This document shows, in pieces, positions 6,135-64,000 of a stretch of DNA of 64,000 nt. Source of the DNA: Ginglymostoma cirratum (lineage: Eukaryota); contig JAHRHZ010000079.1 of NCBI GenBank assembly GCA_024137785.1, positions 9,833,073 through 9,897,072 of the forward strand, read 5' to 3'. Each line of letters begins with the position of its first letter. Position 1 is the first letter of the stretch. A program made the translations under genes and the position numbers. A model generated the notes under the pieces. That model saw nothing but the letters and a program-made list of their open reading frames with translations, searched no databases and had not been told where the DNA came from.

Positions 6135-6308
6135 ATGATGTGGAGGTGCCAGTGTTGGACTGGGGTGGACAAGGTCAAAAATCACACAACAACTGGTTAA
6201 TAGTCCAACAGGTTCATTGATACCTGAAGACGTTGTGAGTCTCTGAAAGCTTGCGTTTTCAAATGAATCTGTTGGACTATAGCCTGGTATTGTATGATTT
6301 TTGACCTT
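6135..6308. mobile_element. Fold-back PLE-terminus element (family C) with degenerate hammerhead motif in the loop
   Basis: Inverted arms 6171-6218 and 6262-6308; ctgaaga (6224-6230)...gaaagctt (from 6245) between the arms. Confidence 0.6.
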
Positions 6309-6519
6309 AAAGCTTGGAGGAAGCATTGATGGTAGGAAGGGGCACAAAGTGTACTCTGAGTGAGGGACTTTAATATCTACCATCAACAGACACAAATGCA
6401 AGTAAGATATAATTATGTTAATTCTACAAGTTGAAATAAAAATTGTAGATTTTCTTTTTAGTGGGTAACCTTGATTTTTGAACTCTGCAGACATATCTTC
6501 TCCATGTCCACTCATTCAT

Positions 6520-7270
6520 AATTTTTCATGATCCAAGTTAGATCACACCGCAGCCTTCCCTTTTTCAGAGCAAAGGACCCAAGTCTGATAATTCCTGAAA
6601 CCCCAAAACCCAAAACCTTCAGTTCTGATATTATTTTTGTAAATCTTCTTGCAGGTTCACCAATGGTCTATACTTTTCTGAAATATGAAGATCAGAACTG
6701 TTCAACTGGGTATTCTGACTGTGATCAAGGTTCTACATGAAGCAAAAGCTTTTCTGCTTTTAGATTTTATTCCCTTGGAATAGTGCTTCAAGTGCATTTT
6801 TAGGACTTGTTAACTTAAATTTCTACTTCTAATGATCTGTGAATCCATTTCCTTAGATCTCCCTTGTTTCTCTACCCCATTTAAATTCATTTAGAGTGTG
6901 CAATTTTCTTCTTTCTCCTACCAATATACATTTATGTATTTTAAAATTCGTTTGTACTTTAGATGTCAATTCTATATATTTATTGATATCATCTTGGAAT
7001 TTGTCCTTGTCTGTCTTAATATTAACCAACTATTGCTAGCCCAAACTTTTGAAATTATTTGCAAAAATCCTGAACGGTAGTCGCTGTGCTGATCGCTGTG
7101 GGAAACTATCTCCCATTTACACTAATGTGAATAACCACCCATAGCACTACAATCTGTTTCTTTCTTTTGTAGCCAACTTGTTCTCCATTCTGTTACTTGT
7201 CTGCTGACTCCATTTTTTTGGTTTTAGTCACGATTACTGTGCAGTCCTTTATTGACAATCCAAAATTACA
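6520..7270 (-). mobile_element. CR1 LINE RT fragment, very degenerate
   Basis: gatcagaactgttcaact and tagccaacttg resemble CR1 RT (QFWSP, NWL) on the minus strand. Confidence 0.5.
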
Positions 7271-7596
7271 TATATTATGTTATTCTTCTGCATTCCTACA
7301 AGTACATTGTCAAAAACAATCAAGAAAATTTGTCAAGCACCTTACAAAGCTGACATTTTGTTTGTTTTTAGATGTATTTATGTTACATACTCTGAACAAA
7401 GAATTAATAGTTCTTCTCTGATATTAAAGTATTTGGCTTGTAGTTCCTTGGACTTGACAAATTTCCCATTATAAATATAGGAATATCAACATAACTAGTC
7501 ACTATTTACATTATATATACAGATCTAGTGCCTTTGCTATTTTGTCCCTTACTTATTTTACTGTAAACAGATACAATCCATCTATGCTAGAAGTTT

Positions 7597-8764
7597 GAGA
7601 TAACCAGGTGCAGAGCTGGATGAACACAGCAGGCCAAGCAGCATCAGAGGAGCAGGAAAGCTGACGTTTCGGGCCTAGACCCTTCTTCAGAAATGGGGGA
7701 GGGGAAGGGGGTTCTGAAATAAATAGGGAGAGAGGGGGAGGCGGATAGAGGAGAAGATAGGTGGAGAGGAGACAGACAGGTCAAAGAGGCAAGGATGGAG
7801 CCAGTAAAGGTGAGTGTAGGTGGGGAGTTAGGGAGGAGATAGGTCAGTCCAGGGAGGACGGACAGGTCAAGGGGGAGGCATGAGGTTAGTAGGTAGGAGA
7901 TGGTGGTGGGGCTTGAGGTGGGAGGAGGGGATAGTTGGGAGGAAGAACAGGTTAGGGAGGCGGGGACCAGCTGGGCTGGTTTTGGGATGCAGTAGGGGGA
8001 GGGGAGTTTTTGAAGCTTGTGAAGTCCACATTGATACCATTGGGCTGCAGGGATACCATCTACCTGATACCATTCCGCTTGGGGAGGCTGGGGACCACTT
8101 TGCAGAACACCTATGCTCAGTTTGCACTAAACAACTACACATCCCAGTAGCGAACCATTACAACTCCCCCTCCCATTCCTCAATGACATGTCCATCCTGG
8201 GCCTCCTGCAGTGCCACGACGATGCCACCCGAAAGTTGCAGGAACAGCATCTCATATTCCGCTTGGGAACCCTGCAGACCAACGGTATCAATGTGGATTT
8301 CACAAGCTTCAAAATCTCCCCTCCCGCTACCGCATCCCAAAAGCAGCCCAGCTCGTCCCCACCTCCCTAACCTGTCCTTCCTCCCGCCTATCCCCTCCTC
8401 CCACCTCAAGCCCCACCACCATCTCCTACCTACTAACCTCATCCCGCCCCCTTGACCTGTCCATCCGCCCTGGACTAACCTGTCTCCTCCCTAACTCCCC
8501 ACCTACACTCACCTTTACTGGCTCCATCCCCGCCTCTTTGACCTGTCTGTCTCCTCTCCACCTATTCTCTCCTCTATCCATCTTCTATCCGCCTCCCCCT
8601 CTCTCCCTATTTATGTCAGAACCCTCTTCCCCTCCCCCATTTCTGAAGAAGGGTCTAGGCCCAAAGCATTAGCCTTTCTGCTCTTCTGATGCTGCTTGGC
8701 CTGCTGTGTTCATCCAGCCATATACCTTGTTATCTCAGATTCTCCAGCATCTGCAGTTCCTACT
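7597..8764 (+). mobile_element. Penelope-like element (family A), 3' portion with inverted terminal copy
   Basis: GIY-YIG C-terminal remnants (DHFAEHL, VANHYN, RKLQEQHLIFRLGTLQTNGINVDF); arms 7597-8052 and 8270-8736 inverted; TSD atctatgct(a/g)gaagttt at 7580-7596 and 8765-8781. Confidence 0.9.
7660..7693 (-). ncRNA. Minimal type I hammerhead ribozyme motif
   Basis: Minus strand tttCTGAAGAagggtctaggcccGAAACGTCagc. Confidence 0.7.
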
Positions 8765-10979
8765 ATCTATGCTGGAAGTTTAATGTGTTATAAATTTGAC
8801 CAACCTAACAGTTACTCCCTTTTTTATATATACCCTAATCCCTTTTTGCATTTTTTGATCTTGTCTTATCAACCTTATTAGTCTCCATATTAAATTTTGA
8901 GGCAAAATATTACTGTTATCACTAAGGGTTTATTTTGTGTATCACTTAGAGGGCTTATAATTTTTTGCAGATTTTCCTTTTGTTGTTTATTTCCCTGTGA
9001 AATAATTTACAATTTATTTTTGTAATCGATAATTATTTCATTTTCTAGTTATTCCTAGTTTTCTATTTATTTATTTCCTCTTCATATCTATTTTTATTTG
9101 TTTTGCTTCAATTTTACCCACATCTTTTTTTATTCATCAATTTTATTTTGTTTTGGTTAATTCTTGTGTTCTCGCAGGAATATATGACTTCCAAATTATT
9201 TTAATCACCCTTTTTAAATGCTTTCTGCAGTCGTTCTATCTCTTTGCCTGTCGATGTTCCTTTCCCAATTTACTTGCCCTGATTCCATTCTCACCCCCTC
9301 AAAGCTAGCTAAAATGAGGCATCTTTTGCCAGTCTGTTTTTGTTCACTTTTTTTGATTGACAATCTGCTTGTAAGGGCATTGCAAAGTCGAAAGAAATGT
9401 GGCAGCTGCTGCTGACTGCTCCAGTTCACTTGATTGCTCAGTCTTCTGCTGTTTACTCTTTCATCTCTAATGCTTAAATCTGTTCAAAGACTTCCTGCTC
9501 TACTCCTGAATTCAAAAGGAAATAAGAGAGAGGGAGAGAGAGATTATAGGGTTAAGCTAAGGTGCTGAGGCAGGTGAATTTAGCTGGTGGCTCCTATCTA
9601 TCTGTACCTATCAATATCCTCCACTTACTTAATAAAGTTGGTTTAATTCATTCACATTTTATCAAATCAAATGTGATTAATTCAATCGATAAATCCTCAT
9701 TAGTCACTGTTGAAATGTAGGCAGTAGGTTTGTGAAATGTTTCAGTGGCTGTAAATAAAGGGCTTTAAGATGTCTAACATCATGAAAGATAATATAAAAA
9801 AATCAAGTCTTTCTTTTCTCAGTAAGAAGTCTAGAAGGGCAGCATCCCGGAATAAATGTTGGGTATGGCCAAGCTGCCTGAAACTGATCCTGCTCATGGT
9901 GGCAAGCCCTTCATTGAAATACTAAAGGTGTCACCCATGCCACAGGGACTGCCTGTCCTCTAAAGGAGGTTGCATATTGTGGTGTGATGTTTCCTAGGGG
10001 TTGCTGGAGTGGCAGTTGCCTCTTTTTTGCAGAAAGACAACTAGAAGTGCCCACTTTTACTACTTTTTGTAAGGATGCTATAAAGTCTTCCTTTTTTAAA
10101 ATTTATTTAGGGACCCACATATAATCCAACTTTTACCTCCCAGATATTCTCTATTCCAATACTTTCTGTACAATTGTATCAATTACGTCTAGCTTCAGAG
10201 ATTCTGTCATGAACATTCCTTTTTCTTTCTTACCTCCATTTACCGTCACATGTGACAACCGAGAAATCGGCAATTTGGATTCAGGGACTTTGATGTGAAT
10301 TGGGTTGGTGCAGGGATGTATATTTTAGATCACCTTCACATCTGCTCAGACTTACATTTTAACATTTTTTGATCTGCTTGCTGTTTTTATATTCTAATAT
10401 GAAGCGCAGTATCCCCTCGAGTGCTGATTCTACTCACAAACAAATCTTTCATTCTTCATTTGAATTGAGTGTTGCAATTGATACTAACCATAAAACATGG
10501 AAATAAGCTTTTTGTTTGAAATTTGAAGCAGTCAATAAGACGTTAGGAAACAGTGTTGAAAATATACCGGAATGATTTATTGATTATGTTTTTGTGTTCA
10601 AAAATCTAAAGATATCACATACTTTTCAAAAGTGTGACCATTAACCTTTCAGATTCCTTAGTGGGATATGTCATTCTGCAGTCAGATTGCTGTCTTCTAA
10701 AAGGTAAAAGTACCTGAAAATTGATTAACAATTCTCATTCTTTTTAAAAGGTTTGACCATGAAAAAAGCCTTTCTAGAAGAATAGACTCTAGAAGAACAA
10801 TGTAACAGCTGTTATTAGACTGCTGAATTGACCTCTATAATTTCAAATCTAATGTTGATCTTGCTTTGTACCTTGGTAACCTTTTATGCCTCGCTCTTAA
10901 CCTTGTATGCCCCATTCTGTCTAAGCACCTTATGACCTGCATGTCCTTGTTGGCTGAGATCTGCCTGTACAATTAATCC

Positions 10980-11705
10980 TTGCATCTAAATCATTGAGAT
11001 GCAATGTGAACAGCTAGCTCCAAGAACTGATTGTTGTGATACCCAACTGGTCACAGCCTGCCAACCTGAGAATGACCCATTCATTCCTACTCCCTGCTTT
11101 CTACCTGTTAATCAAACCTCAATCTATGTTAGTATATTGTTCCTAATTTCATCCAAATTAGTTTTGTTTACCATCTTCCCGTCCACAATTTTATCAAAAT
11201 CCTCCCAAAAATCCAAGTATACCACATCTACTGGTTTCTCCTCAGTGAATTTGCAGTAACATCTTAAAAAAAAAACTGCTACAGGTGTGTCAAGCGTGAC
11301 TTCCCCACATGAATCCATGTTCACTGTTTATTTGCCAAATATCTAGTAATTACAAACCTTAAATCATATTCTAATATTTTATCTACTACTGATGTCAAGT
11401 TATCAGGTCTGTAGTGAACACAGAACCTGCCGGAGAAACTCAACAGTTCTGGTAGCATCTGTGAAGAGAAAGCAGAGTTAACGTGTTGAGTCCAGTGGAC
11501 CACCTTCAGGTCTGTAGTCTCCTGATTTCTCACTCTCTCCTTTTCTTAAACAATCGGATTACATTCACAACCTCCCAATCTGCAAGCACTGTTCTATAAT
11601 TATTAGTTTTATTGTCTCAGTACCTATTTCTTTCAACAACCTAGGTTAACTGTCATTAGTCCTGGGCCTTTGTAAAATTTTGGTCCCATTAACTTTTCCA
11701 ATACT
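10980..11705 (-). mobile_element. CR1 LINE RT fragment
   Basis: KPVDVVYLDFWEDFDK and YRPDNLTSVVDKILE in the ORF track. Confidence 0.8.
11416..11505 (-). mobile_element. 90-bp PLE-terminus insertion (family B)
   Basis: Similar to the terminus of 13683-15140; exact 13-bp flanking duplication tcaggtctgtagt at 11403-11415 and 11506-11518. Confidence 0.75.
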
Positions 11706-12245: not shown

Positions 12246-12259
12246 GTAAGCAGAAGTTA

Positions 12260-12357
12260 AAAAGAAGTGCTGCAGAAGCTCAACAGATCTGGCAACATCT
12301 GTGGAGAGAGAAATAGAGTTAACGTTTTAAGTCTGGTATGATTCCTCTTCGTAACTG
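12260..12357 (-). mobile_element. PLE-terminus fragment (family B)
   Basis: gaagctcaacagatctggcaacatctgtggagagagaaatagagttaacgttt matches family B ends. Confidence 0.65.
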
Positions 12358-13682: not shown

Positions 13683-15140
13683 GTTTCTCCGATACATCAA
13701 TGATATAATCGGTGCTGCCTTCCTCTCTCATTTAGAATTGGAAAACTTCATCAATTTCACCTACAATTTCCACCCTGCCCTCACCTTCATCTGGTCTGTC
13801 TCTGACTCCTCCCTTCCCTTCCTCTTTCTGTTTCCATTTCTGGGGATAGACTGGCCACTAATATCCATTACAAACCCACCGACTCCCACAGCTACCTGGA
13901 CTATACATCATCACACCTCACTTCCTGTAAAGACTCCATCCCATTCTCTCAGTTCCTCCATCTGCGTCGCATATGTTCAGATGAGGCCAACTTCGACAAG
14001 GGAGCCTCCAAAATATCCACATTCTTCCTCAACCGAGGATTCTCCGGCTCCGTTGTCGACAGCGCCCTCAATCGGGTCCGACCCATCTCCTGCACTTCTG
14101 CCCTCACCCCTCCTCTTCCCTGCCACAACAGCGATAGGGTTCCCCTCATCCTCACCTACCATCCCACCAGCGTCCACATCCAGAAGATCATCAGACGCCA
14201 TTTCCGCCACCACCCGACACATATTCCCCTCCCCTCCCCTCCCCTCCCTTGTCCGCCTTCCGCAGGGACCATTCCCCCAGGGACACCCTGGTCCATACTT
14301 CCTTCACCCACAACACCTCCCCACAGACCTATGGCACCTTCCCTTGGAACCAGCGAAGGTGCAACACCTGCCCCTTTACCACCTCCCACCCCAGAATCCA
14401 AGGGCCCAAACATATCTTCCAGGTGAAGCAAAACTTCGCATGCACTTCCAAGAATCTAGTCTACTGCATTAGCTGCTCACAATGTGGTCTCCTCTACATT
14501 GGGGAAACGAAGCATAGACTTAGTGACTGCTTTGCAGAACATCTACGGTCTACTCGCAAAAAAGACCCTGAACTACCTGTTGCCTGCCACTTGAATGCAC
14601 CACCTTGCTTCCTGGCCAACATCTCTGTCTCTGGCTTGCTGCAGTGCTCCAGTGAAGCCCAACGCAAGCTGGAGGAACAACACCTCATTTTCCTACCCTA
14701 CAGCCCTCCGGACTCAATACTGAGTTCAATAATTTTAGAGCTGAAACTCTCCCATGTCCCGGCCCCCCACCCCACACACTAGGCCTTGTTATCACATAGC
14801 CTACCACTACACACCCCCTGTTGTTAGTCACTAACAGTCCCCATTGACAACTACTCACCCTCCCAGCCTGATCGTTAGCAACTCCTTTGTCTGTCCAACC
14901 GTCTTTCTCTCTTTTTGGGCTCTATCCTATCGTTTACTCCCTACCTCACCCACCTCCCTATTTTCTGCATATAAACTGACCTTTTCCCAGCCACCATCAG
15001 TTCTGAGGAAGATTCACCGGATGGGAAACAGAGAAGACTCTGTTTTCTCCGCCACAGATGCTGCCAGACCTGCCGAGCTTTTCCAGCAACTTTGTTTTTG
15101 TTCCTGATTCACAGCATCCGCAGTTCTTTTGGTTTTTATT
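13683..15140 (+). mobile_element. Penelope-like element (family B), 5'-truncated, RT C-terminus and GIY-YIG endonuclease, frameshifted
   Basis: FLRYINDI (YIDD-type), FHPALTF, CNTCP, NLVYCISCSQCGLLYIGETKHRLSDCFAEH; terminal ctgagga...gaaac; TSD taatgcatttt at 13672-13682 and 15141-15151. Confidence 0.93.
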
Positions 15141-15764: not shown

Positions 15765-16083
15765 GGCAGTGGCACAGTGGCTCAGTGGTTAGCACTGCTG
15801 CCTCACAGCGCCAGCGACCCAAGTTCAATTTCACCCTAGAGCGAATGTCTGTATGGAGTTTGCACATTCTCCCCGTGTCTGCGTGGGTTTCCTCCGGGTG
15901 CTCTGGTTTCCTCCCACAGTCCAAAGATGTGCAGGTTAGGTGGATTGGCCATAGCTTTTGGGGATGTGTAGATTAGGTGTGTTATAGGGGGATGGGTCTG
16001 GGTGGGATGCTCCAAGGGTCGGTGTGGATTTGTTGGACCAAAGGACATGTTTCCACACTGTAGGGATTCTATGTCTATGTCTA
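15765..16083 (+). mobile_element. HE1-type V-SINE
   Basis: A box gtggctcagtggttagc, V domain, tail gtagggattctatgtctatgtcta. Confidence 0.9.
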
Positions 16084-17053
16084 ATGGGTATCGGGGGGGA
16101 AACTCTCCAGTATTTGAAGTCATTCCTGACACACAGGAAGATGGCTGTGGTTGTTGAAGGTCAGCCAATTCGGCTCCGGTACCCCTCTGCAGGAGTTCCT
16201 CAGGGTAATGACCTAGGCCCAACCATCTTCAGCTGCTTCATCAATGACCTTCCCTCCATCATAAGGTGAGAAGTACAGATATTTGCCAATGATTGTACAT
16301 CATTCAGCGACGTTTGCGACTCCTCAGATGTTGACTCCATGTTCAAATGCAACAAGAAAGGGTGGCACAGTGGCTCAGTTGTTGGCACTGCTGCTTCACG
16401 GCGCCAGCGACCCAGGTTCAATTCCACCCTCAGGCAACTGTCTGTGTGGAGTTTGCACATTCTCCCCGTGTCTGCATGGGTTTCCATCGGGTGCTCCGGT
16501 TTCCTCCGACAGCCCAAAGATGTGCAGCCTAGGTGGATTGGAAGTACTAAATTGCCTGTAGTGTTCAGGGATGTGTAGTTGAGGTGGGTTATGGGTGGAT
16601 GGGTTTGGGTGGGATGCTCTGAGGGTCAGTGTGGACTTGTTGGGCTGAAGGGCCTGTTTCCACACTGTAGGGATTCTATGATTTTATGAAGATCTGGACA
16701 ATATCCAGGCTTGGGTTGACAAGTGGCAAGTAACATCTGTACCACACAAATACCAAGCTATGACCATCCCAAGAAGAGGCTATCTAACCATTACCCCAAC
16801 ATCCTGGGGGTTACCATTGTCCAGAAACTCAACTGGTCTCACCACATAAACACAGTGGCTACAAGAGCAGGTCAGAGGCTAGGAATACTGTGACGAGTAA
16901 CTCATCGCTTGACTCTCCAAAGCCTGTCCACCATCTCCAAGGAACAAGTCAGGAGTGTGACAGAGTACGCGCTATTTGTGTGGATGAGTGCAGTCCCAAC
17001 AACACTCAACAAGCTTGACACCATCCAGGACAGGGCACCCTGTTTAATTGGCA
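16084..17053 (+). mobile_element. CR1-like LINE RT fragment split by an HE1 SINE
   Basis: SAGVPQGNDLGPTIFSCFINDLPSII; resumes at gatctggacaatatccagg after 16688; LNKLDTIQDRA. Confidence 0.85.
16360..16688 (+). mobile_element. HE1-type V-SINE
   Basis: gggtggcacagtggctcag head, B box ggttcaattcc, V domain, tail gtagggattctatg. Confidence 0.92.
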
Positions 17054-19650: not shown

Positions 19651-19962
19651 TGGCACCATATGGCTCAGTGATTAGCACTGCTGCCTCACAGTGCTAGGGA
19701 CCCGGGTTCAATTCCACCTTCGGGTGACTGTCTGTGTGGAGTTTGCACGTTCTCTCCGCGGGTTTCCTCTGGGTGCTCTCCCACAGTCCAAAGATGTGCA
19801 AGCTAGGTGGATTGGCCATGCTAAATTGCCCATAGTGTTCAGGGATGTGTAGTTTAGGTGGGTTATGGGGGGATGGGTCTTGGGTGGCATGCTCTGAGGG
19901 TCGATGTGGACTTGTTAGGCCAAAGGGCCTGTTTCCACACTGTAAGGGTTCTATGAATCTAT
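19651..19962 (+). mobile_element. HE1-type V-SINE
   Basis: tggctcagtgattagcactgctgcc, B box ggttcaattcc, V domain, tail. Confidence 0.9.
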
Positions 19963-20329: not shown

Positions 20330-22680
20330 AGTTAAAATAATTGGAGGCAGGTCTAGTTCAAATGACTATTGTTGTAGTTCTTGGAAATTAATTACTGCAG
20401 GACTTCTTCAGGGTAATGCACTAGGCCCAGAATTCTTAAATTGGATTATCAATTACCTTCCCTCTATTGCAAGGTCAGAAATGGGGATGTTCACTGAAAA
20501 CCACATAATGTTCAGCACTTTTTGTGACTCCTTAGATATTGAAACAATCCATTTCCGTATGCAGTAAGACCTGGTCAACATTCAGACTTGAAAAGAGAGC
20601 AGTGCAAGTAACATTTGCACCACAGAAGAGCCAGACAATGACCTTCCACAACATCTAATCGTATCCCCTTAACATTGACATTCAGTGACATTATAATTGC
20701 TGACATCCCCCATCAAAATAGAACCTGAATTGGATCAACAATAATGCAGTCATTACAAGCAGAGATTGGACGCTAGGAAATCTGTGGTAAGAAACTCATC
20801 ACCTAATTCCCCAAAACCTGTCTAGCACATACAAAGCACAGATTAAGAGTGGGTGCAATGTTCTTTACTTGCCAGGATGACTACAACTTCAACAATGCTC
20901 AAAGTGTTTGACAGTATTCAAGACAAAGCAACTCCTTTGACTGGCACTTTAAACATTCACCCTCTCCACCACATGACAGCAGTGTGTGCTATCTACATGA
21001 TCCACTGCAACAACACACCAAGGCTTCTTTGCAGCACCTTCCAATCCCAAGAACTCCACCACCTGATAGGATAAAGGTGACAAGTATAATGGTAACAGTT
21101 CCACCAGTAGGTTCCCTTCCGAGACACAGAAAACTGCAGATGCTGGATTCCAACGTAGACAAACAGGAGGCTGGAAAAAACACAGCAAGCTGGGCTGCAT
21201 CTGGAGGAGGAGAAGTCAATGTTTTGGGTATTACCCTTCCTCAGGACTGGATATAGGGGTAGGGGGAGCTGCAGATAAAGAGAGGGTGAGGGTAGTGGAA
21301 TGGTAGTGATAGGTGGACACTGGTAGTAGGTACGACCTGGTTGGTTGATGAGAGGGATGAATCTGATTGGTAGCTGGAATTGAAGGGAGGAGTGGGGGCT
21401 GGAAAGGGAGCCAGGGAATGGGTGGGAAGGTTATTTGAAATTAGAGAACTCAATGTTAAGACTTCCGGGCTGTAGGGTGCCCAGGTGGAAGATAAGGTTC
21501 TGTTCCTCAAATTTATGATCTAATTCACTTTGACACTGCAGGAGGCCAAGGATGGACATGTCGGAGGTGTTTTGTTGGGGGCGGGGTGCGAATGGGCGGT
21601 GACTGGGAGTTTAGGCTGGCTGTTTCAGGCCAGGAGAAGACACTTGGCGAAACAGTTGCCTAGTCTACATTTAGTTGCACTGATGTAGAGAAGACCACAT
21701 CAGGAGCAGTGGATGCAGTAGACTAGGTTGGAGGTGATGCAAATGAAACCCTGTCTCACCTGGAAGGACTGTTTAGGGCAGTGGATGGAGGTGAGGGAGG
21801 TGGTGTGCTGGTAGGTATTGCATCTTTTTACGATTACAGGGGTAGGTACTGGGGGTTATGGAGTGGTTGGTGGGGAGTGTGGGGCACACTAAGGAGTGGT
21901 GAAGGGACTGGTTCTTGCAGAAGGCAGAGAGGGGTGGGGAATGGAAGATGTTCTGGGTGGTTGGGTTGAATTGGAGTTGACAGAAGTGTTTGAGGATGAT
22001 ACATTGGATGCGGAGCCTTGTGGGTTGGAAAGTGAGAACAAGGGACACCCTATCTTTATGTTTGGAGGGGGGGATTTAGAGATGATGAGCAGGGAATGGA
22101 GGAGGCGCAGTGGAGGGCTGTCTGGATGACCGAGAGCGGGGAAAGAACGTTGTTTGAAATAGGAAGACATTCAGGATGCTTGGCAGTGGAATGTCTCTTC
22201 ATCAGAGCAGATGCAATGGAGATGAAGGAATTGGGAAAACAAGATGGAGTTTTTGCTGAATACAAGGTGGGAGGAGGTGTAATCCAGGTGGCTATGGGAG
22301 CCTGTGGGTTCATAGTATTTGTTGGCCCATAAACCCGCACCAGAAATGAAAACAGGGAGTTCAAGAAAGGCGAGGGACGTGTCTGAGATAGACCAAGTGA
22401 ATTTGAGGCCGGGTTGGAAGTTGTTATCAAAGTCAATGAACTGTTCCAGTTCAGTCTGGGTGCAGGATGCAGCACCAATGCAGTCATTCTGAGATGGATC
22501 TAAATCATTGTTGCTGGTCTAAAATTATGGAACTCCTTTCCTAACAGCAGTGTGGATATCCCTACACCTCATGGATTACGGTGGTTCAAGAAGGCAGAGC
22601 AGCATCACTTTCTCAATAGGGATGGCAATAAATGTCAGCTCAGCAAGCAATGCTCATGTCCCATGGAGAAATATGAATGT
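20330..22680 (+). mobile_element. CR1-like LINE 3' half interrupted by a PLE (21122-22487)
   Basis: FDSIQDKATPLTG...AVCAIYMIHC; sequence resumes after 22490 and ends with tail agggatggcaataaatg. Confidence 0.75.
21122..22487 (-). mobile_element. Penelope-like element, RT C-terminus and GIY-YIG, degenerate
   Basis: Minus-strand remnants MSSYFKQRSFP, LVLTFQPT.LRIQCIILKHFCQLQ, YPCNRK; terminal ctgaggaagggtaatacccaaaacatt near 21215-21245. Confidence 0.85.
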
Positions 22681-25186: not shown

Positions 25187-25442
25187 AAGAAAAGCAGAAA
25201 GAGCCCACAGCAGGTCTGGCACCATCTGTGGTGAGAGAAACAGAGTTAACCTTTAGGATCCAAGATAACTTTTATTACCCTAGAGTTTACAGCGCAGAAG
25301 GAAGCCCTTAGCCACCTAAAAGAAATGTCATATTGAACTCAAAATGTTAACTGTTTCGCTCTGTCTACAGATGCTGCCAGACCTGCTGAGTTTCTCCATC
25401 AATTCTGCTAAACCTTCAGATCTCCAGCATTTTTGCTTTTGT
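25187..25442. mobile_element. Fold-back PLE-terminus element (family B), diverged
   Basis: Left arm cagcaggtctggcaccatctgtggtgagagaaacagagttaac is inverted relative to right arm gttaactgtttcgctctgtctacagatgctgccagacctgctg. Confidence 0.7.
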
Positions 25443-31287: not shown

Positions 31288-31527
31288 CTCAGAGATAGTA
31301 AGAACTGCAGATTCTGGAGTCAGCAATAATACAATGTGGAGCTGGAGGAACACAGCAGGCCAGGCAGCATCAGAGGAGTAGGAAAGTTGATGTTTTGGGT
31401 CAGGACCCTTCTTCAGAAATGGCTTCACAGGAAATTTCTGAAGAAGGGTCCCGACCTGAAACGTCAACTTTCCTGCTCCTCTGACGCTGCCTGGCCTGCC
31501 GTATTCCTCCAGCTCCGCACAGTGTTA
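31288..31527. mobile_element. 240-bp fold-back PLE mini-element (family A) with two opposed hammerhead motifs
   Basis: Long inverted arms; ctgaagaagggtcccgacctgaaacgtc on plus and a counterpart on minus; exact 14-bp TSD tcacttttaatcta at 31274-31287 and 31528-31541. Confidence 0.88.
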
Positions 31528-35214: not shown

Positions 35215-35438
35215 AAAGAGAAACAGAAATTGCTGGAAAAGCTCAGCAGGTCCGTGAAGAGAAATCAGAGTTAATGTTTCGGGTCCAGGGTGATCCTTCC
35301 TCAGAACTCAACTTCGGGTTACTGGACCTGAAACATTAACTGTGATTTCTCTTCACAGATGCTGCCAGATCTGCTGAGCTTTCCAGCAACTTCTGTTTTT
35401 GTTTCCGATTTACAGCATCCGCACTTCTTTTGGTTTTT
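35215..35438. mobile_element. Fold-back PLE mini-element (family B) with hammerhead motif
   Basis: Inverted arms; minus strand gttCTGAGGAaggatcaccctggacccGAAACATTaac; probable TSD attaatggattctt / attaataaatcctt (11 of 14). Confidence 0.8.
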
Positions 35439-37899
35439 ATTAATAAATCCTTGCAGCCAGAACTGCAGTTTAAATGTTGAATCAGCCAATCTTATCATGG
35501 CCTAAGTAACATCCTCCTTTTTTGTAAAGACAGATACAAAGTATTCATTCAAAACCTCAGCCATGCCTCTGCCCCAATCTGCAAATCCCCATTTTGATCA
35601 GCCTTAATTCTCTTTTAAACACAATCTTACTGTTTTCATTGCCTAAAGGAAACTTTAGGTTTTCCCTTCATGCGAACTGCTAGCGTTTTCTCACAGTTCT
35701 TCATTGCCTCTCTTATTTGCCTTTCCACTTTCACCACCCGCACCCCCAAAAAACACGAACACACACAACCTTCGGTATTCCTGTTGATTTTCAGTTGTAT
35801 TTTCTGCATTAATCTGTCGTATGCACACTTTTTTTCCTTTTTAATATTAATGCATACTTCTTTTGCTGTGCAGAGATCTTTGAATTTGTTTGTCCAACCT
35901 TTTCTAACAGAGAGAATGTAAATTAACTACACTCAAAATCAGCTGCTCTTTAAAAATGGACCGGTGTTCAGTTTTCCTGCCAATCTTTTATTCCAATCTG
36001 TTCTTACCCCATTAATGTCAAGTTCTCTGCCGATTGACATTTCTTACTCTGGATTGTTGCATCTCATTACCATCACGTTATGGCATTTGGGTGGTGCTTA
36101 ATGCAGTCTCCAACATTAATCCTTCAGAACCATTGCCGTATATAATAGGGTTCATCCCACTGCTCTGCCTTTGCCACTCATAGACATTAAAATCTGCAAA
36201 ACTGTGAATATTGTCAAAACACTCGCGCCAGCTTTATTCACACCTTTTATACTGAACAAAACTTCAAGTGCGTTTGAAAAACCCATAGATTCAAAGGGCT
36301 TTTGTTTCATTTTATATCTAATTGTAGGAAAGTGGAGGATCAATGGTTTCACCGGAGCCTACTCACAATCACAGCCACTGGGCTATTTTATTGAATTTGT
36401 AACAAAATCTAGTCTCCTAGTGTGACTTCATTCTCTATTGAACTTAACTTTATGTGTAGAAAACAGAAGGATTGGCTTGCTGTGAACTGATTTGAAATTG
36501 AGAACCAGGCTTTGAGTGCTTCTGAACTAGAAAGTTAGATTAGTAATATTTTACTTTACAATCAGTTGGTCATGGAAGTAAGGACAGTAAACTGCTCAGA
36601 TTAGTTCAGTGTGTTTGACCCTGTTGATTTAATATGCCATTAGACTGTCCTAAAAAACTAAGTAGCATTGAATTGACATTCTGCACTTGAGTACAGAGTT
36701 GCCAGTAACATCTTATAATCCAATTTGAAGTGCTTTGGGATGTTGACGAGTCTGTGAGATGCACGATCGGTTTTCTTGCTAACTTTATTTCTAACAGTAC
36801 AGAATTAGGCCTATTCCAATCAGCGTTAAGAAAGAATTTTTCAGCATCAATATTTTCGCAAATGAATATTGGTCTTTAGATTTCCATTTGGTTACCAGAT
36901 CTAACCCACTCATGCAAACTAAATGAATTTACTGCAAGCCGAGCCTCTAATGCTTGGAGCAAGTGCTTTGGATTTTATTTCATGAACTATGAAGATGGGG
37001 ACAGTTTACATCTAATTAGCATTTTAATTATTTTGGAGAGATCAAGAATTTAGAGGAAGCTTTTATCAACTTCTGCTTCCTCTGGGGATCGATTAGAGAC
37101 TTTGACAATTCTCTTTGCAGAGCAGTCATACTGGTAAAGATAAAACGATGATGACGCCGTGCCCTAATGTTGAAAGTGTATGTTAGTGTGCTTTTTAACT
37201 TGAGTTTTTTCTTGACTATGATATATTATATTTATGCTTTGCACCTATGGGAGAGCTCAATTTGCTGCAGCAGTGTGCTGGCTCTTGTAAGATGTCATTA
37301 TGTACTATTTTTGAACAACTGGTAACTCATTTAAAATAAGCAAATTAGTAATTGTATTGGAATGGAACTCAAAAGACTATTAAATGAACCAGTTAATCAC
37401 TATACTATGAGGACAAAGTAAACCCACAGGTATATAAATGGTCTACGGACTTGATAAATAATTGGACTGGAATTATTTGATTGTTATTCTTTTGGAATAT
37501 AAACAATAAAAAATATCAAAATGCCAATTCAATATAAACAAAAATTTTCTACTGTTTTATAAAATATCATATGCCATAAAATAAACTTCCATGTTATTTC
37601 AGAAACAAATTCAGTGCAAGTTTGGTGAATCTTCTAATAACTGGCTGAAATCCTGTCTAAAACAAATCTCTTTCTGGATTCACAAGTTGATGATATTGTC
37701 AAATTTTAAATGTGGTCTCAATAAATCAAACCTGTTTTTTTAAATGTTTGTTATGGATCTTGTGAAACCAGCTAAGGGTAATCACGCTAAAATTAAGGGA
37801 AGTATAGAATTGTTAATATTAATAATTTAAATTGTATCAATAACAACATAAAGTTCTTGTTAAATCTGTAAAAGCAACCGATTAAGATCTGATTTGTGT

Positions 37900-42117: not shown

Positions 42118-42650
42118 CATCATAGGAGCAGAAAAGCTTGACGTTTCGGGCCTAGACCCTTCATCAGAAATGGGGGAGGAGCAAGCTTCAAAATCTCCCC
42201 TCCCCCAACTGCATCCCAAAACCAGCCCAGCTCATCCCCGCCTCCCTAACCTGTTCTTCCTCTCACCTATCCCCTCCTCCCACCTCAAGCCGCACCCCCA
42301 TCTCCTATCTACTAACCTCATCCCGCCCCCCTTGACCTGTTCGTCCTCCCTGGACTGACCTATCTCCTCCCTAACTCCCCACCTACACTCACCTTTACTG
42401 GCTCCATCCCCGCCTCTTTGACTTGTCTGCCTCCTCTCTACCTATCTTCTCCTCTATCCATCTTCTATCCGCCTCCTCCTCTCTCCCTATTTATTTCAGA
42501 ACCCTCTTCCCCTCCCCCATTTCTGATGAAGGGTCTAGGCGCAAAACGTCAAGCTTTCCTGCTCCTATGATGCTGCTTGGCCTGCTGTGTTCATCCAGCT
42601 CCACACCTTGTTATCTCGGATTCTCCAGCATCTGCAGTACCTATTATCTC
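42118..42650 (+). mobile_element. PLE family A 3' end with short inverted terminal copy
   Basis: Closely similar to 8305-8764; inverted piece 42118-42180; exact 13-bp TSD tgaataaaggctg at 42105-42117 and 42651-42663. Confidence 0.9.
42137..42170 (-). ncRNA. Minimal type I hammerhead ribozyme motif
   Basis: Minus strand tttCTGATGAagggtctaggcccGAAACGTCaag: canonical CUGAUGA, stem II, GAAA, GUC triplet. Confidence 0.75.
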
Positions 42651-44676: not shown

Positions 44677-47600
44677 GGAAATAACTCCACAGAAGCTGGT
44701 ATCCTGTCTTCAAGTCACCCTTTATTCACATGTGGAAAGTCCTTGACACTGATGCAGCTTCCTCAGAGCCATCTCCCAGAGTGACAGGATATCTGTCACT
44801 CCAGTTTTTATGTGAGCTGAGATTCCATGATTGGACCACGTTAACAACATTAATCAGGGAACTCATATTCAATGAGGTCCACCTTGCTGACTTTGGTACA
44901 GTCATTATATCCCTCCCCCTCTGAGTCTGAAGACATGGGGTGATTGTTTTTGCTGTAGCGCATGCAGGGGTGTTTTAGCATCAGGTCAGGTTCTTCTGAC
45001 TCTGCCTCAGATACAGGAGGCATGTAACGCACAGTCGCTCACCTCTCGCACCCAGAATATCTTGGAAGAAGTTCATTCTCTTCTTCAATGGCAAAGGCAT
45101 TAAGGCAGTGACCATCTCAGATTCCAAGGTCTCCTTAAAGCTGGACAGGGATGGAGAACCCACAGGTAAAGCCAGCCTTTCCGACTGTTCTGAGGAGCCA
45201 GGCATGTTTTGCGCCTGCCTCCTGATTACAATTTTGCAGCTTTCATATGGTCTACCTGCTTGTTCAAGACCATCGCACCTACCCGAACTTTATACATCAC
45301 TGGGCCTGTCCTCACATCGACTGTGTCGCTTACCCATGCTGCGCCATTCCTGTGGTTCCTATGCCAAACTTTGTCCCTGAAGTAGATTGTTTCTCTCGAT
45401 TAGCAGAGCCTTGTGTCTGGTTTGGCATTCCTGATGCCATTTCACCCTTTCCCCAGATCCAGGAAGATCTGATTTAACCTGGTGCACAGTCTTCTGTCCG
45501 TTAGCAACTCTGCTGGGGCTATCCCCGTAGTTGCATGAGGGAAGGTTCTTAATCAAATAGGAAACCGGACAGTTTTGTACCTGGTGAAGCTGTCAGCCAT
45601 TTCTTTAAGCCTGCTTTCAAAGTATGGAATGCTCTTTCTGCCAAATCATTGGATGATGGATGGTATGGAGCTGTTCTTATATGTTGAATGCCATTCAACT
45701 TTAGGAAATACTCAAATTCCCTGCTGATAAACGATGGCCCATTATCTATGACCAACAATTTCAGGAGTCTGTGTATTGCAAAAGCTGCACACAGTTTTTC
45801 TATCGTAATCCCCATGTTTGACGAATGAACACTATGCACATCCAACCACTTTGAATGGGCATCCATAATGATTAAAAGCATTGAGCCATGAAAGGAACTG
45901 CATAGTGGACATGAGTCCAGGTTTTATCTGGTCTTTCCCTGATTGCGGGGGCACTGCTGGTGGTAATCTTTGTGCTTGTTGACATTCTCAGTACTGCCCC
46001 ACCAATGTGGCTGTGTCTGCATCCAATCCTGACCATCAGGCATAACTTCTCACCAATATCTTCATTTTGGAAACTCCTGGATGACCCTGGTGGAGTTCAG
46101 CCAGTTTTCTAGGCGACCTGTGCTTGGGACAATCACTCTAGCTCGCCATAATAATATGACATCCTTTACGGTGATCCGGCCTCTCCGGGTCCAAAAAGGT
46201 TTCAGTTCTGGTTGTGAAAGCCCTTTGGTTTCCCCCATCACCACCAGCTATTTCAGTTAGCTAGGACGGGCTTTTTCTACGTGCAAAGTCTAATATTGCC
46301 AGCTGTGACTGAAATTTAAAACCTTTATGGACTCTTCCTGTGGCAGTAGTGTATCTGTTAGCAGGAGGCGGCTCAATGCATCTGCAGATGCTACTTGGAG
46401 TCTTGTAAAGGTATTGGTGAACTTCCTAACTCTAAATATGACCGCCAAGCCTTTCTTCTCTATCTATGCATAGAACATAGAACATTACAGCGCAGTACAG
46501 GCCCTTCGCCCTTCGATGTTGCGCCGACCTGTGAAACCAATCTGAAGCCCATCTAACCTACGCTATTCCCTTATCATCCATATGTTTATCCAACGACCAT
46601 TTAAATGCCCTTAAAGTTGGCGAGTCCAGTACTGTTGCTGGCAGGGCATTCCACGCCTTTACAACTCTCTGAGTAAAGAACCTACCTCTGACATCTGTCC
46701 TATATCTATCACCCCTCAATTTAAAGCTATGTCCCCTCATGCTAGCCATCACCATCCGAGGAAAAAGGATCTCACTGTCCACCCTATCTAATCCTCTGAT
46801 CATCTTGAATGTCTCTATTAAGTCACCTCTCAACCTTCTTCTCTCTAACGAAAACAGCCTCAAGTCGCTCAGCCTTTCCTCATAAGACCATTCCCTCCAT
46901 ACCAGGCAACATCCTGGAAAATCTCCTCTGCACCCTTTCCAATGCTTCCACATCCTTCCTATAATGCGGCGACCAGAACTGCATGCAATATTCCAAGCGC
47001 GGCCGCACCAGAGTTTTGTACAGCTGCAACATGACCTCACAGCTCCAAAACTCAATCCCTCTACCAATAAAACCTAACATACCACAGGCCTTCCCAACAA
47101 GGCTAACAACCTGTGTGGCAACTTTCAGGGATCTATGCTCATGGACACCGAGATCTCTCTGCTCATCCATACTACCAAGAATCTTACCATTAGCCCAGTA
47201 CTCTGTGTTCCTGTTACTCCTTCCAAAGTGAATCACCTCACACTTTTCCACATTAAACTCCATTTGCCACCTCTCAGCCCAGCTCTGCAGCTTATCTATG
47301 TCCCTCTGTAACCTGCAACATTCTTCCGCACTATCCACAACTCCACCGACTTTAGTGTCATCCGCAAATTTACTAACCCATCCTTCTACGCCCTCATCCA
47401 GGTCATTTATAAAAATGACAAACAGCAGTGGCCCCAAAACAGATCCTTGTGGTACACCACTAGTAACCGAACTCCAGGATGAACATTTCCCATCAACCAC
47501 CACCCTCTGTCTTCTTACAGCTAGCCAATTTCTGATCCAAACCACTAAATCATCCTCAGTCCCATGCCTCCGTATTTTCTGCAATAGCCTACAGTGGGGA

Positions 47601-50600
47601 ACCTTATCAAACGCTTTACTGAAATCCAAAAACACCACATCAACCGCTTTACCCTCATCCACCAGTTTGGTCACCTTCTCGAAGAACTTAATAAGGCTTG
47701 TGAGGCACGACCTACCCTTCACAAACCATGTTGACTATCCCTAATCAAATTATTCCTCTCTAGATGATTATAAATCCTATCTCTTATAATCCTTTCCGAC
47801 ACTTCACCCACAACCGAAGTAAGACTCACTGGTCTATATTACCAGGGTTGTCTCTACTCCCCTTCTTGAACAAAGGGGCAACATTTGCTATCCTCCAGTC
47901 ATCTGGCACTATTCCTGTAGACAATGCCGATATAAAGATCATAGCCAAATGCTCAGCAATCTCCTCCCTAGCTTCCCAGAGAATCCGAGGATAAATCCCA
48001 TCCGGCCCAGGGGACTTATCTATTTTCACACTTTCCAGAATTGCTAACACCTCCTCCTTGTGAACCTCAATCCTGTCTAGTCTAATAGCCTGTATCTCAG
48101 CATTCTCCTCAACAACATTGTCTTTTTCATGTATGAATACTGATGAAAAATATTCATTTAGCGCCTCTCCTATCTCTTCAGACTCCACGCATAACTTCCC
48201 ACTACTGTCCTTGACTGGCCCTAATCTTACTCTCGTCATTCTTTTATTCCTGACATACCTTAGAAAGCTTTAGAGTTTTCCTGGATCCTACTTGCCAAAG
48301 ACTTCTCATGTCCCCTCCTGGCTATTCTTAACTCTCTCTTTAGGTCCTTCCTGGCTAACTTGTAACTCTCAAGCACCCTAACTGAGCCTTCACGTCTCAT
48401 CTTTACATAAGCCTCCTCCTTCCTTTTGACAAGAGATTCAATTTCTTTTGTAAATCACGGTTCCCTCGCTCGACCACTTTCTCCCTGCCCGACAGGTACA
48501 TATTTATCAAGGACACGCAGTATTTATGCTCTGCATTAGCTGAAGTCCTGGATGCATTGGTTATTGAGCATTCCTCTCCATTGGGCTTTTTATGCACTAA
48601 TATTGCCATGATGCTGTACGGGGTGGGGGTGTCATCACATGGCAAAACCAGATCTTGCTGAGGATCATAGTTTGCCAACAACTTAGAAGATGATAGCTGT
48701 TTCCTCACTGCTCTGAAAGCTATGGCTTGGCTACATGACCATTTCCAAGGCAGACCCTTTTTTAAGAGTGATGCAACGATGCCAGCTGGAGGCCAGCTTA
48801 TGTATGAACTTTCCGTAATAGTTCACTGACCCAGGGAAAGACCTAAAGTCTAGTACAGACGTCGGAGCCGGGGCACCTTTGATTACCCTCACTTTATCTT
48901 CTAGCGGGTGTAAACCAGTCTTGTCAACTCTGCGCCCAAGTAGGTCACTTGCGGTGCTTGGGATATTCATTGTTTCCGTCTAAGGCATACGCCCACCTGA
49001 GTGAAACGTCTAAGGTTTATGTTGAAGTTCTAAGTGCTCCTTATTGGTCGTCCTTATTACTAGCACATCATCTGTATAAATGGTGACCTGGGGTAGACCT
49101 TGTAAAATGTTCTCCATTATCCGCTGAAAAATTGTGTACGCCGATGATACCCCAAATGGCAGTATTGTATTTTGGTACAAACCCTTATGTTCTATTAATT
49201 GTACCATACTTCTGGGAATCCTCATTTAACCACAATTGCAAGTAGACATGGCTCATGTCCAGCTTTGTAAAGAATAGAACCCCTGCCAGCTTTGTGTATA
49301 AATCCTCTATGTGAGGGATTGGGTATTTATCCAGCTGCAAAAAAAGTTTACCATTTGTTTACAATCCCCACAAAGGCAAACCAACCTGTTGGCCTTCATG
49401 TTCCGTATGATTGGTGCTACCCATCCTGCAAACTGGAATGATATGATGATTTCTTTGCTTTCTAGCATTCTGATTTCTGTGTCTACTTTTGCTCGTAAGG
49501 CAAATGACACTTGGCAGGCTATGCAAAATGGTGGAGTTGTTTCCTGGTCAACAGGCAAAGTGGCCTTACCTCTCTTGATAGTCTCTGGATCTTCCTGAAA
49601 ACCATCTGAGTATTTATTAGGACTTCACTCATCGCCATTTTCTAATCAAAAAATGTTGAGCCAATCTAGGTGAATCTTTCTCAATGTTAATTTCGCCCCA
49701 TCAAGCTTGGGCCTGAGCCTTTAACTACTCCAGTGGTAACTGAACCAGCTGCTTCTCATAATAGTCCAGAGCCGAAGCTGTACCCTTAAACTGTAAACAT
49801 TTACTCGGCATAGGTTCTAAGTATAGCTGAGATCTTACACAAATTAAGGCTTGGAGTCCAGAGTGAATTTTGTTAACGTTTGGTTCTGTGATCACTGAAA
49901 CGCTGCACTGGTATCAATCTCCTTTAGAACCAGGTGGCCATTTAACCAGGTGTTTATTTAGATTGGTTCTGATATGGATGTTGTTGAACAATTTAACTCT
50001 TCCCAAACCAGATGTGGATGGGCTTTCCAGGGTATGCTCTCTCCTGGATACCGGCCTGTGAGTTCATTTACTCAATTTAAGTCGAGTCGGACTCCTTTGC
50101 TCTCTTGAGTCAACATTCCAGCAACAACTACAATGGCTTGCCAGCCTGGATCCTGAAGAAAATTTTGATTGCTTGGCTGAGGCTAGGCTTTGTTTTGGGG
50201 TTTTGTTTTGGGCTGACCAAGAGTCCCTCTGTTCAGGATATGTCCTGACTGAGGCTATGCAATTACCCTAACTCAAATGGTGTTCCCCAAGAACAGTCAG
50301 ACTGGTGAGGTGTCCACTTCCACTGAAATACACTGCAACTCTTATACTCCACTTGTTGCATTTACCAATGATAAAGCCAGTTGTAGTGGCTATTTGAAGT
50401 CCAGTTGACCTTCAGCTAATAGGTGCTTTTGCGTGGTTACATCATTAACCTGACATACCAAATAATCTTTCAGCATCTCATTAAGGGTTAAACCAAAGTT
50501 ACATTCCTCTGCCAGTCTTCTTATCTTGTCAAAAGTCCCAATACAGATTCCCCTGGTTCTTGAATTGCCGAGTAAAATGGATAACATCTCAGAATTAGAG

Positions 50601-60500: not shown

Positions 60501-60879
60501 ATCACAGGTATTAATGGGATTGATTTGTAATGTTACTTGATATGGTCATGAGTGCTTAGGGCAAGAATGGAACCTCTTGCTCACAAATGTACCTGCTGCA
60601 GATGCATCTACCCATGACAGTACCCATGACATGACCACCACATAGACCTTGTGAAGACAAAATTCTATCATCACATATCCCAAACCATGTTGCATGGCAC
60701 TATCATTGTGCTAAATGTGACAGACTTAGAAGCTACATTCCCTCTAACTGGTTTTTCTCCAGCACAGATTTCCAAGGTTTAGGTGTGGCACAAACTTCGG
60801 AAACTAGAAGTCAATATGTGTATGCCACTCAGCATACTTCGGAGTGGCTGCGCTGCCACACAGCTTAGAGAAAACATTT

Positions 60880-62760: not shown

Positions 62761-63393
62761 TCAATGATTATCCTGGTGTTCAAGATGAAGTTGTGGATAA
62801 GTAAGCAGTGACACTAGATTCGCCAGATCCCCACTCTGATTTCCATGTTGGGGATTCTCAACATCCATTTTCTATCCATATATTCTACTTTCTACCCCTC
62901 TCCATCTATCTGCTGTGGGATACTTCTACCCATTCAGCCAGGTTTCCATGTCAGCGTGGTGTCTTCCTGTTGACAGGGAAATTCCAGTTGGCGTTGGGAG
63001 ACTATCTTTAATTGGTTCTTTAAATGGCCTGATTGTATCCTGCCACTTGTCGTTGGATAGCTGCAGACACCTACCCATCCATCATCCCACTCCAACTCCA
63101 GCCAGCTTCTCCTCAAACAATCTGGAGATCGGAACATGTCACTTTCTGATGGCAAGTTGCCTCTGATTCCACCTCCTCATCACAACACAATTGATTTGAT
63201 TTGATTTATTGTAGTCATGTTTATCTAAGTACAGTGAAAACCTTAGTTTGCGAGCAAGTCAAGCAGATCACAGTAATCAAGGGCATACAGATCATAGGGT
63301 GAAAAAAAAACTTGGACAAAGTGAGGCATACAGATTACACCACACAGGACGTGCACGAAACAAGATCAACATTAACAAGATCAACATTGTTTG

Positions 63394-63431
63394 AGTTAAC
63401 GTTTCGGGTCCGGTGACCCTTCCTCAGAACT
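63394..63431 (-). ncRNA. Minimal type I hammerhead ribozyme motif, best-paired copy
   Basis: Minus strand agtt CTGAGGA a gggtc accg gaccc GAAA CGTT aact: stem I agtt/aact, perfect 5-bp stem II, palindromic AACGTT stem III. Confidence 0.78.
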
Positions 63432-63841
63432 AATGGCAGCTTGCAAAACATTGGTTTATATGCAGAAATAGACAGAGGGATGGTGTAGGGGGTAAAATAT
63501 AGGATAAAGCCTGAAGAGAGAGAAGAGCAGTTGGATAGACAAAGGAGTTGATAACAATCTGGCTAGGAGGGTAAATAGCTGTTAATGGGGACTGTTAGTA
63601 ACTAACAATAGGTAGTGTATAATGGCAGGCTTTGTGATAACAAGACCCCTACTCCATTCCCCTCTCCATTTTCTGCAATATAAAGCGACGTTTTCCCAGC
63701 TACCATCAGTTCTGAGGAAGGGTCACCGGAGCCAAACCTCTGATTTTTTTCTTCACAGTTGCTGCCAGACCTGCTGAGCTTTTCCAGCAACTTCTGTTTT
63801 TGTTCCTGATTTACAGCATCCACAGTTCTTTCAGTATTTAT
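63395..63841. mobile_element. Fold-back PLE element (family B)
   Basis: Minus-strand terminal copy 63395-63650 then plus-strand terminal copy to 63841; exact 14-bp TSD tcaacattgtttga at 63381-63394 and 63842-63855. Confidence 0.88.
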
Positions 63842-64000
63842 TCAACATTGTTTGAATATAGAGAATCCATTCATCAGTCTAATAACAGCAGTGAAGAAAC
63901 TGTGCTTGAACATGTTAGTGTGTGTGTTCAAGCTTCCATATCTTCTCCCCAACAGAAGAGGTTGTCGGGGAGCGTTACCAAAGTGGGAGATGTGTCTTTG

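What the first reader, a model, noticed from the sequence alone, without database searches (positions are those of the whole stretch)
6135..63855. Graded series of hammerhead-bearing, TSD-flanked Penelope fold-back elements
Seen: about a dozen insertions from about three PLE families, ranging from coding copies (13683-15140, 21122-22487) through partial inverted copies (7597-8764, 42118-42650, 63395-63841) to non-coding hairpins of 170-250 bp (6135, 25187, 31288, 35215) and a 90-bp stub. Six have clear 11-17 bp TSDs and most keep a CUGANGA...GAAA core or a decayed version. Established: PLEs carry minimal type I hammerheads and often integrate with an inverted terminal copy. Inference: the small hairpins may be a non-autonomous MITE-like ribozyme retroelement class, differing from retrozymes in having inverted rather than direct hammerhead repeats.
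Basis: partly seen in the sequence, partly recalled or inferred. Interest (0 to 1): 0.7.

Follow-up and report, generated by a model that had tools for sequence, protein, structure and literature searches.

The report
Penelope retrotransposon twin run-off hairpins
These mirror-image DNA insertions are real and very common, but they are likely one-off stubs made each time a known jumping gene (Penelope-like) inserts, not a self-copying ribozyme element, and their sharp ends likely mark where that gene's RNA starts and how its two DNA copies are joined.

Summary
The 12 insertions, three to four Penelope-like (PLE) families and six 11-17 bp TSDs are confirmed. The MITE-like ribozyme class is not supported. 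In 1.22 Mb sampled without regard to the elements, 62 of 237 loci are head-to-head, 171 solo and 1 tandem; lengths run from 83 to 1311 bp. 42 of 46 resolved pairs have one tailed and one short arm. Arm 5' ends pile up 1-6 nt before the hammerhead core (A 37/144, B 43/123), not at its cut site. Full-length copies begin there too, and the unit is the element's 5' leader. Window hairpin 31288's junction is unique in the genome. Minimal junctions do recur (291 of 878 B hairpins share one). Fourteen A loci with one shared junction mix subfamilies and tail sides, so that junction likely forms anew each time. Best model: both nicked target strands are primed on same-source RNA, both cDNAs run off the RNA start and anneal end to end. 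Inverted copy plus tail is published; the scan noted these hairpins before (187 findings, at least 20 genomes).

The parts
6135..6308 (.). Family C hairpin, 174 bp: tailed antisense arm (+38..+119 counted from the C of CUGA) and short sense arm with core at 6224; only an 8-bp flanking repeat (6126/6314)
   Evidence: family C tied to PLE coding sequence in 4 of 31 upstream regions
7597..8764 (.). Family A head-to-head insertion: short antisense arm (-379..+94, intact core at 7690-7667) and tailed sense arm (-562..+126, end of the endonuclease); 17-bp TSD with 1 mismatch
11416..11505 (-). 90-bp B-related solo stub, decayed core, 13-bp TSD (11403/11506)
12259..12345 (-). Decayed B-related solo stub, no TSD found
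13683..15140 (+). Family B 5'-truncated coding copy (RT C-terminal part, linker, GIY-YIG, 3' UTR, leader with tail), frameshifted; 11-bp TSD
   Evidence: (82-84% aa identity to the 515-aa ORF of L223)
21122..22487 (-). Older, fourth PLE family coding copy with tail and decayed core; no TSD found
   Evidence: (46-58% aa identity to the L223 ORF)
25187..25430 (.). Decayed B-related hairpin, no core left, no TSD
31288..31527 (.). Family A hairpin, 240 bp: tailed arm -6..+128, short arm -4..+92 with intact core at 31438, templated filler, 14-bp TSD; junction unique in the genome
31979..32085 (-). Decayed B-related solo stub (+3..+103), no TSD
35215..35441 (.). Family B hairpin: short arm -4..+91, tailed arm +8..+134; 10-bp repeat (35180/35442) with about 25 extra bases on the left
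42118..42650 (.). Family A head-to-head insertion: antisense arm -12..about +50 with intact core, tailed sense arm -340..+128; 13-bp TSD
63395..63841 (.). Family B head-to-head insertion: antisense arm -221..+34 with intact core, tailed sense arm -64..+134; 14-bp TSD

Best explanation
The hairpins are the shortest members of a continuous series of insertions of endonuclease-bearing Penelope-like families and are likely made anew at each site by the autonomous element. Shown: the 100-135-nt unit is the element's 5' leader (hammerhead first, ORF start about 170 nt in); it ends at two fixed points about 35 nt apart; head-to-head pairs nearly always use one of each; 5' ends stop 1-6 nt before the hammerhead core; both arms carry the same subfamily variants; TSDs are 10-18 bp. 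Inferred: the endonuclease makes a staggered cut; each target 3' end primes reverse transcription at one of the two internal sites on RNA from one source copy; priming in the leader runs off the RNA's 5' end, likely an initiator-type start at the A at -4; the two identical cDNA ends pair through 2-3 self-complementary bases (AT in family A, CTG with a central mismatch in family B) or are joined by repair with short templated fillers. Solo stubs would be events where one primer succeeded. The ribozyme is likely a passenger here, not the cause of the ends.
For: Architecture counts 62 head-to-head, 0 tail-to-tail, 1 tandem, 171 solo, 3 complex of 237. One tailed plus one short arm in 42 of 46 resolved pairs. 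5'-end peak at -6..-1: A 37/144, B 43/123, about 6-7 per nt against about 1 downstream and 0.2 upstream, p 3e-14 and 6e-17. Full-length L229 starts at -2 and runs leader-ORF-3'UTR-leader; of 17 leader-joined ORF starts among 20 loci, 8 begin between -5 and +32, 9 run on to -94 or further, none stop between -93 and -6. Arms agree at 438/473 (A) and 116/137 (B) diagnostic sites against 264 and 84 expected. Dominant junctions equal the best self-annealing register: B 291 of 878 and 291 of 369 with 0-2 nt filler; A zero-loop AATT in 18 of the first 50 listed of 487 (counted by eye). TSD in 31/46 inverted but 23/142 solo loci. Two internal RT start sites bounding the tail, extension of both target strands, and no need for ribozyme cleavage are shown in vitro for an anole PLE (PMC11167929).
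Against: No RNA 5' end was measured: only assembled contigs were available. No excess of a cap-derived G at the stop (4/14 vs 3.5 expected; 2/10 vs 2.7). In D. virilis the start lies well upstream and it is the intron end that meets helix I (PMC2377424, PMC4209133), and family B has an AG at -4/-3. Both arms reach the peak in only 6 of 52 unbiased A and B pairs. Arm concordance could also come from copying one cDNA or from later gene conversion. One pair of unrelated loci shares an 18-nt complex filler. The clone test with loci was done for one A junction only (14 distinct loci of 76 matches); the dominant B junction was counted, not fetched.
Confidence: 0.72

Rival explanations
1. One reading: small hairpins are a non-autonomous, MITE-like ribozyme retroelement class copied as whole units from master hairpins.
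For: Hundreds of loci share one junction (76 of 498 A, 291 of 878 B). 50 of 58 scored inverted loci are 300 bp or shorter. One pair shares an 18-nt filler.
Against: Shared-junction A loci have the tail on either side (8 vs 4 directly seen among 15 fetched) and mix subfamilies; no arm polarity; 29 distinct loops among the 29 distinct loci closest to hairpin 31288; its junction is unique; the pair with the shared filler has opposite tail sides; no strong one-strand A-to-G editing scar among 89 pairs (top score 5); ribozyme buried in the duplex.
Confidence: 0.06
2. One cDNA is primed, runs off, folds back and copies itself (or self-priming occurs on an antisense template, as proposed in PMC3846280), making the second arm from the first.
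For: Explains arm concordance and rare variants shared within a locus (17 vs 3.4 and 10 vs 2.3 expected); small inverted snippets occur at the 5' ends of some solos.
Against: The commonest junctions have loops of 0-1 nt, too tight for intramolecular priming (steric argument from general knowledge). The second arm stops at the same +94/+96 point that solo copies use as a start. Inverted loci keep clean TSDs.
Confidence: 0.12
3. The short unit comes from a separate short (SINE-like) RNA that starts at -4, or RT stalls at the base of hammerhead helix I, instead of running off the full-length mRNA's start.
For: Short units far outnumber coding copies (B: 6 of 123 arms reach beyond -100). The boundary coincides with the 5' strand of helix I. 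No cap-G signal.
Against: No shared upstream head in solos; full-length copies begin at the same place; 39 of 144 A arms pass through the hammerhead into the 3' UTR.
Confidence: 0.1

Closest known systems
EN+ Penelope-like insertions with adjacent inverted 5'-truncated copy and one-sided 30-40 bp tail (PMC8557442 passages; Pen2a_Av in PMC3846280 passages and Discussion)
   Same: Head-to-head arrangement, tail on one arm, variable TSD, palindromic junctions, RT plus C-terminal GIY-YIG with CX4CX2C linker and CCHH.
   Different: Here both arms are often cut down to the leader alone, at tens per Mb, with a sharp 5' stop at -6..-1 and dominant 0-1 nt junctions; those papers explain junction palindromes by antisense self-priming.
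Poseidon of Anolis carolinensis, PAc (PMC11167929, main text read)
   Same: Hammerhead near the RNA front, two internal RT start sites bounding the tail, both target strands extended, ribozyme cleavage not needed.
   Different: PAc is Penelope/Poseidon clade with its start codon inside the hammerhead; family B has the linker zinc finger and its ORF starts about 40 nt after the tail. The paper's main text does not analyse hairpin stubs or 5' stops.
Minimal type I hammerheads of metazoan PLEs (PMC4209133, results and discussion read)
   Same: Long helix II with bulged base, short helix I, palindromic stem III, mostly single motifs, and pairs 100-700 bp apart on opposite strands attributed to truncated PLEs.
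   Different: That paper proposes cleavage and circular templates; here the ends sit about 30 nt upstream of the cut site.
Animal non-LTR retrozymes (10.64898/2026.07.22.740005, first fifth and passages read)
   Same: PLE pLTR-derived, non-coding, type I hammerhead.
   Different: Defined by tandem direct units each with a ribozyme; here 1 tandem in 237 loci, and paired ribozymes lie on opposite strands.

Membership tests
EN+ Penelope-like elements | RT fused to a C-terminal GIY-YIG endonuclease with CCHH | tested here: met
EN+ Penelope-like elements | pLTR: the 3' end repeats the 5' leader; partial tandems | tested here: met
   L229 leader-ORF-leader; 9 of 17 ORF starts preceded by a partial upstream copy
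EN+ Penelope-like elements | Optional 30-40 bp tail on one end and inverted 5'-truncated copy | tested here: met
   Two 3' ends about 35 nt apart in A, B and C; 42 of 46 pairs one-sided
Neptune/Nematis type | CX2-5CxxC zinc-finger linker between RT and EN (PMC8557442) | tested here: met
   CX4CX2C in family B translations and family A DNA is similar there; Neptune versus Nematis not separated
Neptune/Nematis type | Placement in an RT tree with reference PLEs | not tested
   No named reference PLE set was on hand
Minimal type I hammerhead | CUGANGA / helix II / GAAA / palindromic stem III / NUH | tested here: met
   Family references fold helix II; complete in 4 of 19 window arms
Minimal type I hammerhead | Self-cleavage | not testable with these tools
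   No raw RNA reads; 5' ends near the cut site: A 12/144 (confounded by a subfamily indel), B 6/123, no excess
MITE-like non-autonomous family | Uniform length and identical internal junction inherited from a master | tested here: not met
   Lengths 83-1311 bp; shared-junction A loci not clonal
MITE-like non-autonomous family | Symmetric terminal inverted repeats and short fixed TSD (recalled definition) | tested here: not met
   One-sided tail; TSD 10-18 bp, mode 14
Non-LTR retrozymes | Tandem direct repeats each with a hammerhead | tested here: not met
   1 tandem of 237 loci
Non-LTR retrozymes | Circular monomer RNA | not testable with these tools
   Only contigs were served

The most novel reading that the evidence does not exclude
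These hairpins are an in vivo record of an undescribed PLE integration step: two reverse transcriptases fire into both nicked target strands from two fixed sites in same-source leader RNA, run off the transcription start 4 nt before the hammerhead, and the two identical cDNA ends pair directly through 2-3 self-complementary bases. This would replace the antisense self-priming explanation of PLE palindromes and let starts and joining chemistry be read from genomes alone.
Probability: 0.45. Interest if true: 0.6.

Novelty: new member of a known kind. Interest (0 to 1): 0.36.

Why it matters
How PLEs, the sister group of telomerase, make their tandem and inverted insertions is called unresolved in PMC8557442 and PMC11167929. 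The stubs give counts that make it testable: strict pairing of one tailed with one short arm, same-source arms, a sharp 5' stop, and junctions predicted by self-annealing of two cDNA ends. At about 40 short hairpins per Mb in the sample, they would also be a large source of double-stranded RNA in introns and of assembly trouble. As a new class of element the finding does not hold.

Tried and rejected
Rfam scan of the window: only a chance miRNA hit on hairpin 6135. Cap-derived G at the 5' stop: not enriched; the base there is often T in place of the templated A (10 of 12 A, 4 of 7 B run-3 cores), unexplained, possibly an untemplated A. Hammerhead cut site as the source of ends: no excess in B, weak and confounded in A. 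Splice acceptor at -3 in B: arms usually include the AG and A has none there. Cross-family chimeric hairpins as proof of two RNAs: 5 A/B neighbours found, none with a spanning TSD; three read as nested insertions, two are unresolved. Hammerhead palindrome as dimerisation site: cofolding was inconclusive. ADAR-like scars: none strong. Segmental duplication for the pair with the shared filler: flanks unrelated. RNA ends: one search was laid on the wrong part of L260 and says nothing on the leader; one search shows contigs of guessed-RNA runs with fold-back joints and loose ends at the -4 boundary and at the tail end, which fits read-through of genomic copies and cannot show a start. Sampling limits: 35 of the first 80 stretches read wholly N; 54 loci touching N or an edge were dropped before the architecture counts and 35 A arms before the 5'-end counts, which likely undercounts young hairpins.

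Full report
Observation. Self-comparison and direct reading confirm twelve PLE-related insertions and six TSDs of 11-17 bp. Seven of 19 arms keep the hammerhead core and four keep it through the cut triplet; none has it in both arms. Hairpin 31288 folds at -171 kcal/mol (z -19.8) with the core inside the duplex. The genome is 4.36 Gb; the closest named protein relatives are from sharks and rays at 59-64% identity.

Identity. Family B encodes RT, a CX4CX2C linker and a CCHH GIY-YIG endonuclease, the Neptune/Nematis pattern in PMC8557442. Its endonuclease region has 135,493 first-look candidates in the genome. Family A and the old copy at 21122 are related coding families; family C lies downstream of PLE-like coding sequence in 4 of 31 upstream regions. 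L229 is a full-length 3.3-kb B copy: it begins 2 nt before CUGA, passes through the 135-nt unit into the ORF, and ends with the same unit. So the stub is the element's 5' leader.

Unbiased sample. I fetched 160 stretches of 10 kb at fixed coordinates, 1,219,516 bases not N. After dropping 54 loci at edges or N, 237 remained: 171 solo, 62 head-to-head, 1 tandem, 3 complex, 0 tail-to-tail. Each family has two 3' ends about 35 nt apart. Of 46 inverted loci with both ends resolved, 42 pair a tailed with a short arm, 2 are tail-tail and 2 short-short; 16 had an unresolved end; independent choice would give about half. TSDs of 10 bp or more: 31 of 46 inverted, 23 of 142 solo, 0 of 150 shuffled pairs; mode 14. 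Inverted lengths run from 83 to 1311 bp in the 58 scored.

The 5' boundary. Counting from the C of CUGA, arm 5' ends pile up at -6..-1: A 37 of 144 (35 more censored by N or edge), B 43 of 123, C 6 of 24 (short reference). The predicted cut site (+28 to +30) holds 12 A and 6 B ends in a 7-nt bin; only A is raised and an indel confounds it. Among 20 genomic matches to the ORF start (top of 40 scored; fetched), 17 are joined to the leader; 8 begin between -5 and +32, 9 extend to -94 or beyond as partial tandems, none stop between -93 and -6. A, B and the old family all have an initiator-like pyrimidine-A-N-T context with the A at -4 (consensus recalled). A cap-derived G was not enriched, and RNA starts could not be read from contigs, so the start is inferred.

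The 28 other loci most like hairpin 31288 each have a different loop, and its junction occurs once with up to 2 mismatches. No two unbiased loci had both ends within 3 nt and the same filler (9 near pairs of 666, fillers all different). Genome-wide patterns with exact flanks do show recurring minimal junctions: B 291 of 878, and 291 of 369 with 0-2 nt filler; A 76 of 498 for one junction and, by eye, 18 of the first 50 listed of 487 for the zero-loop form. A few of these are the same locus seen twice. Fifteen loci (14 distinct) with the shared A junction have the tail on one side in 8 and the other in 4, mix subfamilies, and share arm differences 12 times in the same and 16 in the opposite polarity. 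Across loci not selected by the query the polarity counts are 128 vs 127 (A) and 92 vs 118 (B). The recurring A junction is therefore made repeatedly, not inherited; B's was not fetched.

Mechanism. Arms of one locus agree at 438 of 473 and 116 of 137 subfamily sites (264 and 84 expected; A includes query-selected loci), so they come from one source. The dominant junctions are what two identical cDNA ends give if they anneal: ends at -4 in A are self-complementary over 2 bases, ends at -5 in B over 3 bases with a central mismatch (my reading; blunt -4/-3 joining also fits B). Loops of 0-1 nt disfavour fold-back priming. With the in vitro result that a PLE extends both target strands from two internal sites bounding the tail (PMC11167929), twin priming followed by run-off and end joining accounts for orientation, tail asymmetry, TSDs, boundary and fillers. 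One result against a clean picture: two unrelated loci 3.4 Mb apart share an 18-nt filler found nowhere else, with the tail on opposite sides; that fits gene conversion between hairpin centres better than parent-to-daughter copying.

Literature. Inverted truncated copy plus tail: PMC8557442 (passages), PMC3846280 (passages and Discussion). Opposite-strand hammerhead pairs 100-700 bp apart: PMC4209133 (parts 1-2 of 4). Promoter and intron: PMC2377424 (passages). Retrozymes as PLE derivatives: 10.64898/2026.07.22.740005 (part 1 of 5 and passages). Eight searches showed no paper on the 5' pile-up or dominant junctions; supplements, Repbase/Dfam and subscription papers were not seen and may bear on this. 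The scan's own notes reach a similar reading many times; my reading was written down before those look-ups, and a word search for the junction result found nothing.

Verdict. Real, abundant, and in layout already known: new shark-type members of a known kind, with useful mechanistic footprints. Interest 0.36.

Noticed in passing
L276:1408-1658 and L277:1367-1594: Two family B hairpins 3.4 Mb apart with unrelated flanks and their own TSD-like repeats share an 18-nt complex filler found nowhere else, with the tail on opposite sides; suggests gene conversion between hairpin centres or rare re-copying.
   Followed up: partly
several fetched loci: Fixed-length runs of N often lie at or beside hairpins, sometimes with mirrored identical copies on both sides; possibly assembly breaks at palindromes, which would inflate pattern counts slightly and hide young hairpins.
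   Followed up: partly
solo and hairpin 5' junctions, e.g. L064:5180-5300, L215:2683-2830, L096:1951-2188: Fillers often repeat the first 8-12 nt of the unit once or more, like slippage at a template end (telomerase-like) or templated insertion during end joining.
   Followed up: no
L129:2635-3001, L247:613-998: Family A solo units sit inside family B 3' UTRs about 100-120 nt before the core, in two loci; possible target preference.
   Followed up: partly
L220:2660-3008: Three-arm insertion under one 15-bp TSD whose arms differ at 5 of 7 subfamily sites, the one clear case of mixed sources.
   Followed up: no
L241-L260, 35-45 nt after the tail end: Family B has a conserved in-frame stop, then a branch-point/polypyrimidine/AG-like stretch just before the likely start codon: a possible 5' UTR intron.
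   Followed up: no
window 63366-63394 and 63842-63892: The left TSD of the 63395 element is preceded by a partial repeat of itself, and its right flank resembles 10805-10858 inverted, so it sits in another small repeat.
   Followed up: no
window 4275-4578, 15769-16078, 16361-16687, 19661-19962, 40486-40775: Five copies of a 300-bp dispersed repeat at 70-83% identity, probably a SINE.
   Followed up: no
window 46558-48269, 45549-45923, 33317-33760: A LINE-type RT (RVT_1, E 5e-26), an integrase fragment (rve, E 1e-9) and an ORF matching ALKBH8_N (E 1.5e-8), probably transposon-derived.
   Followed up: no
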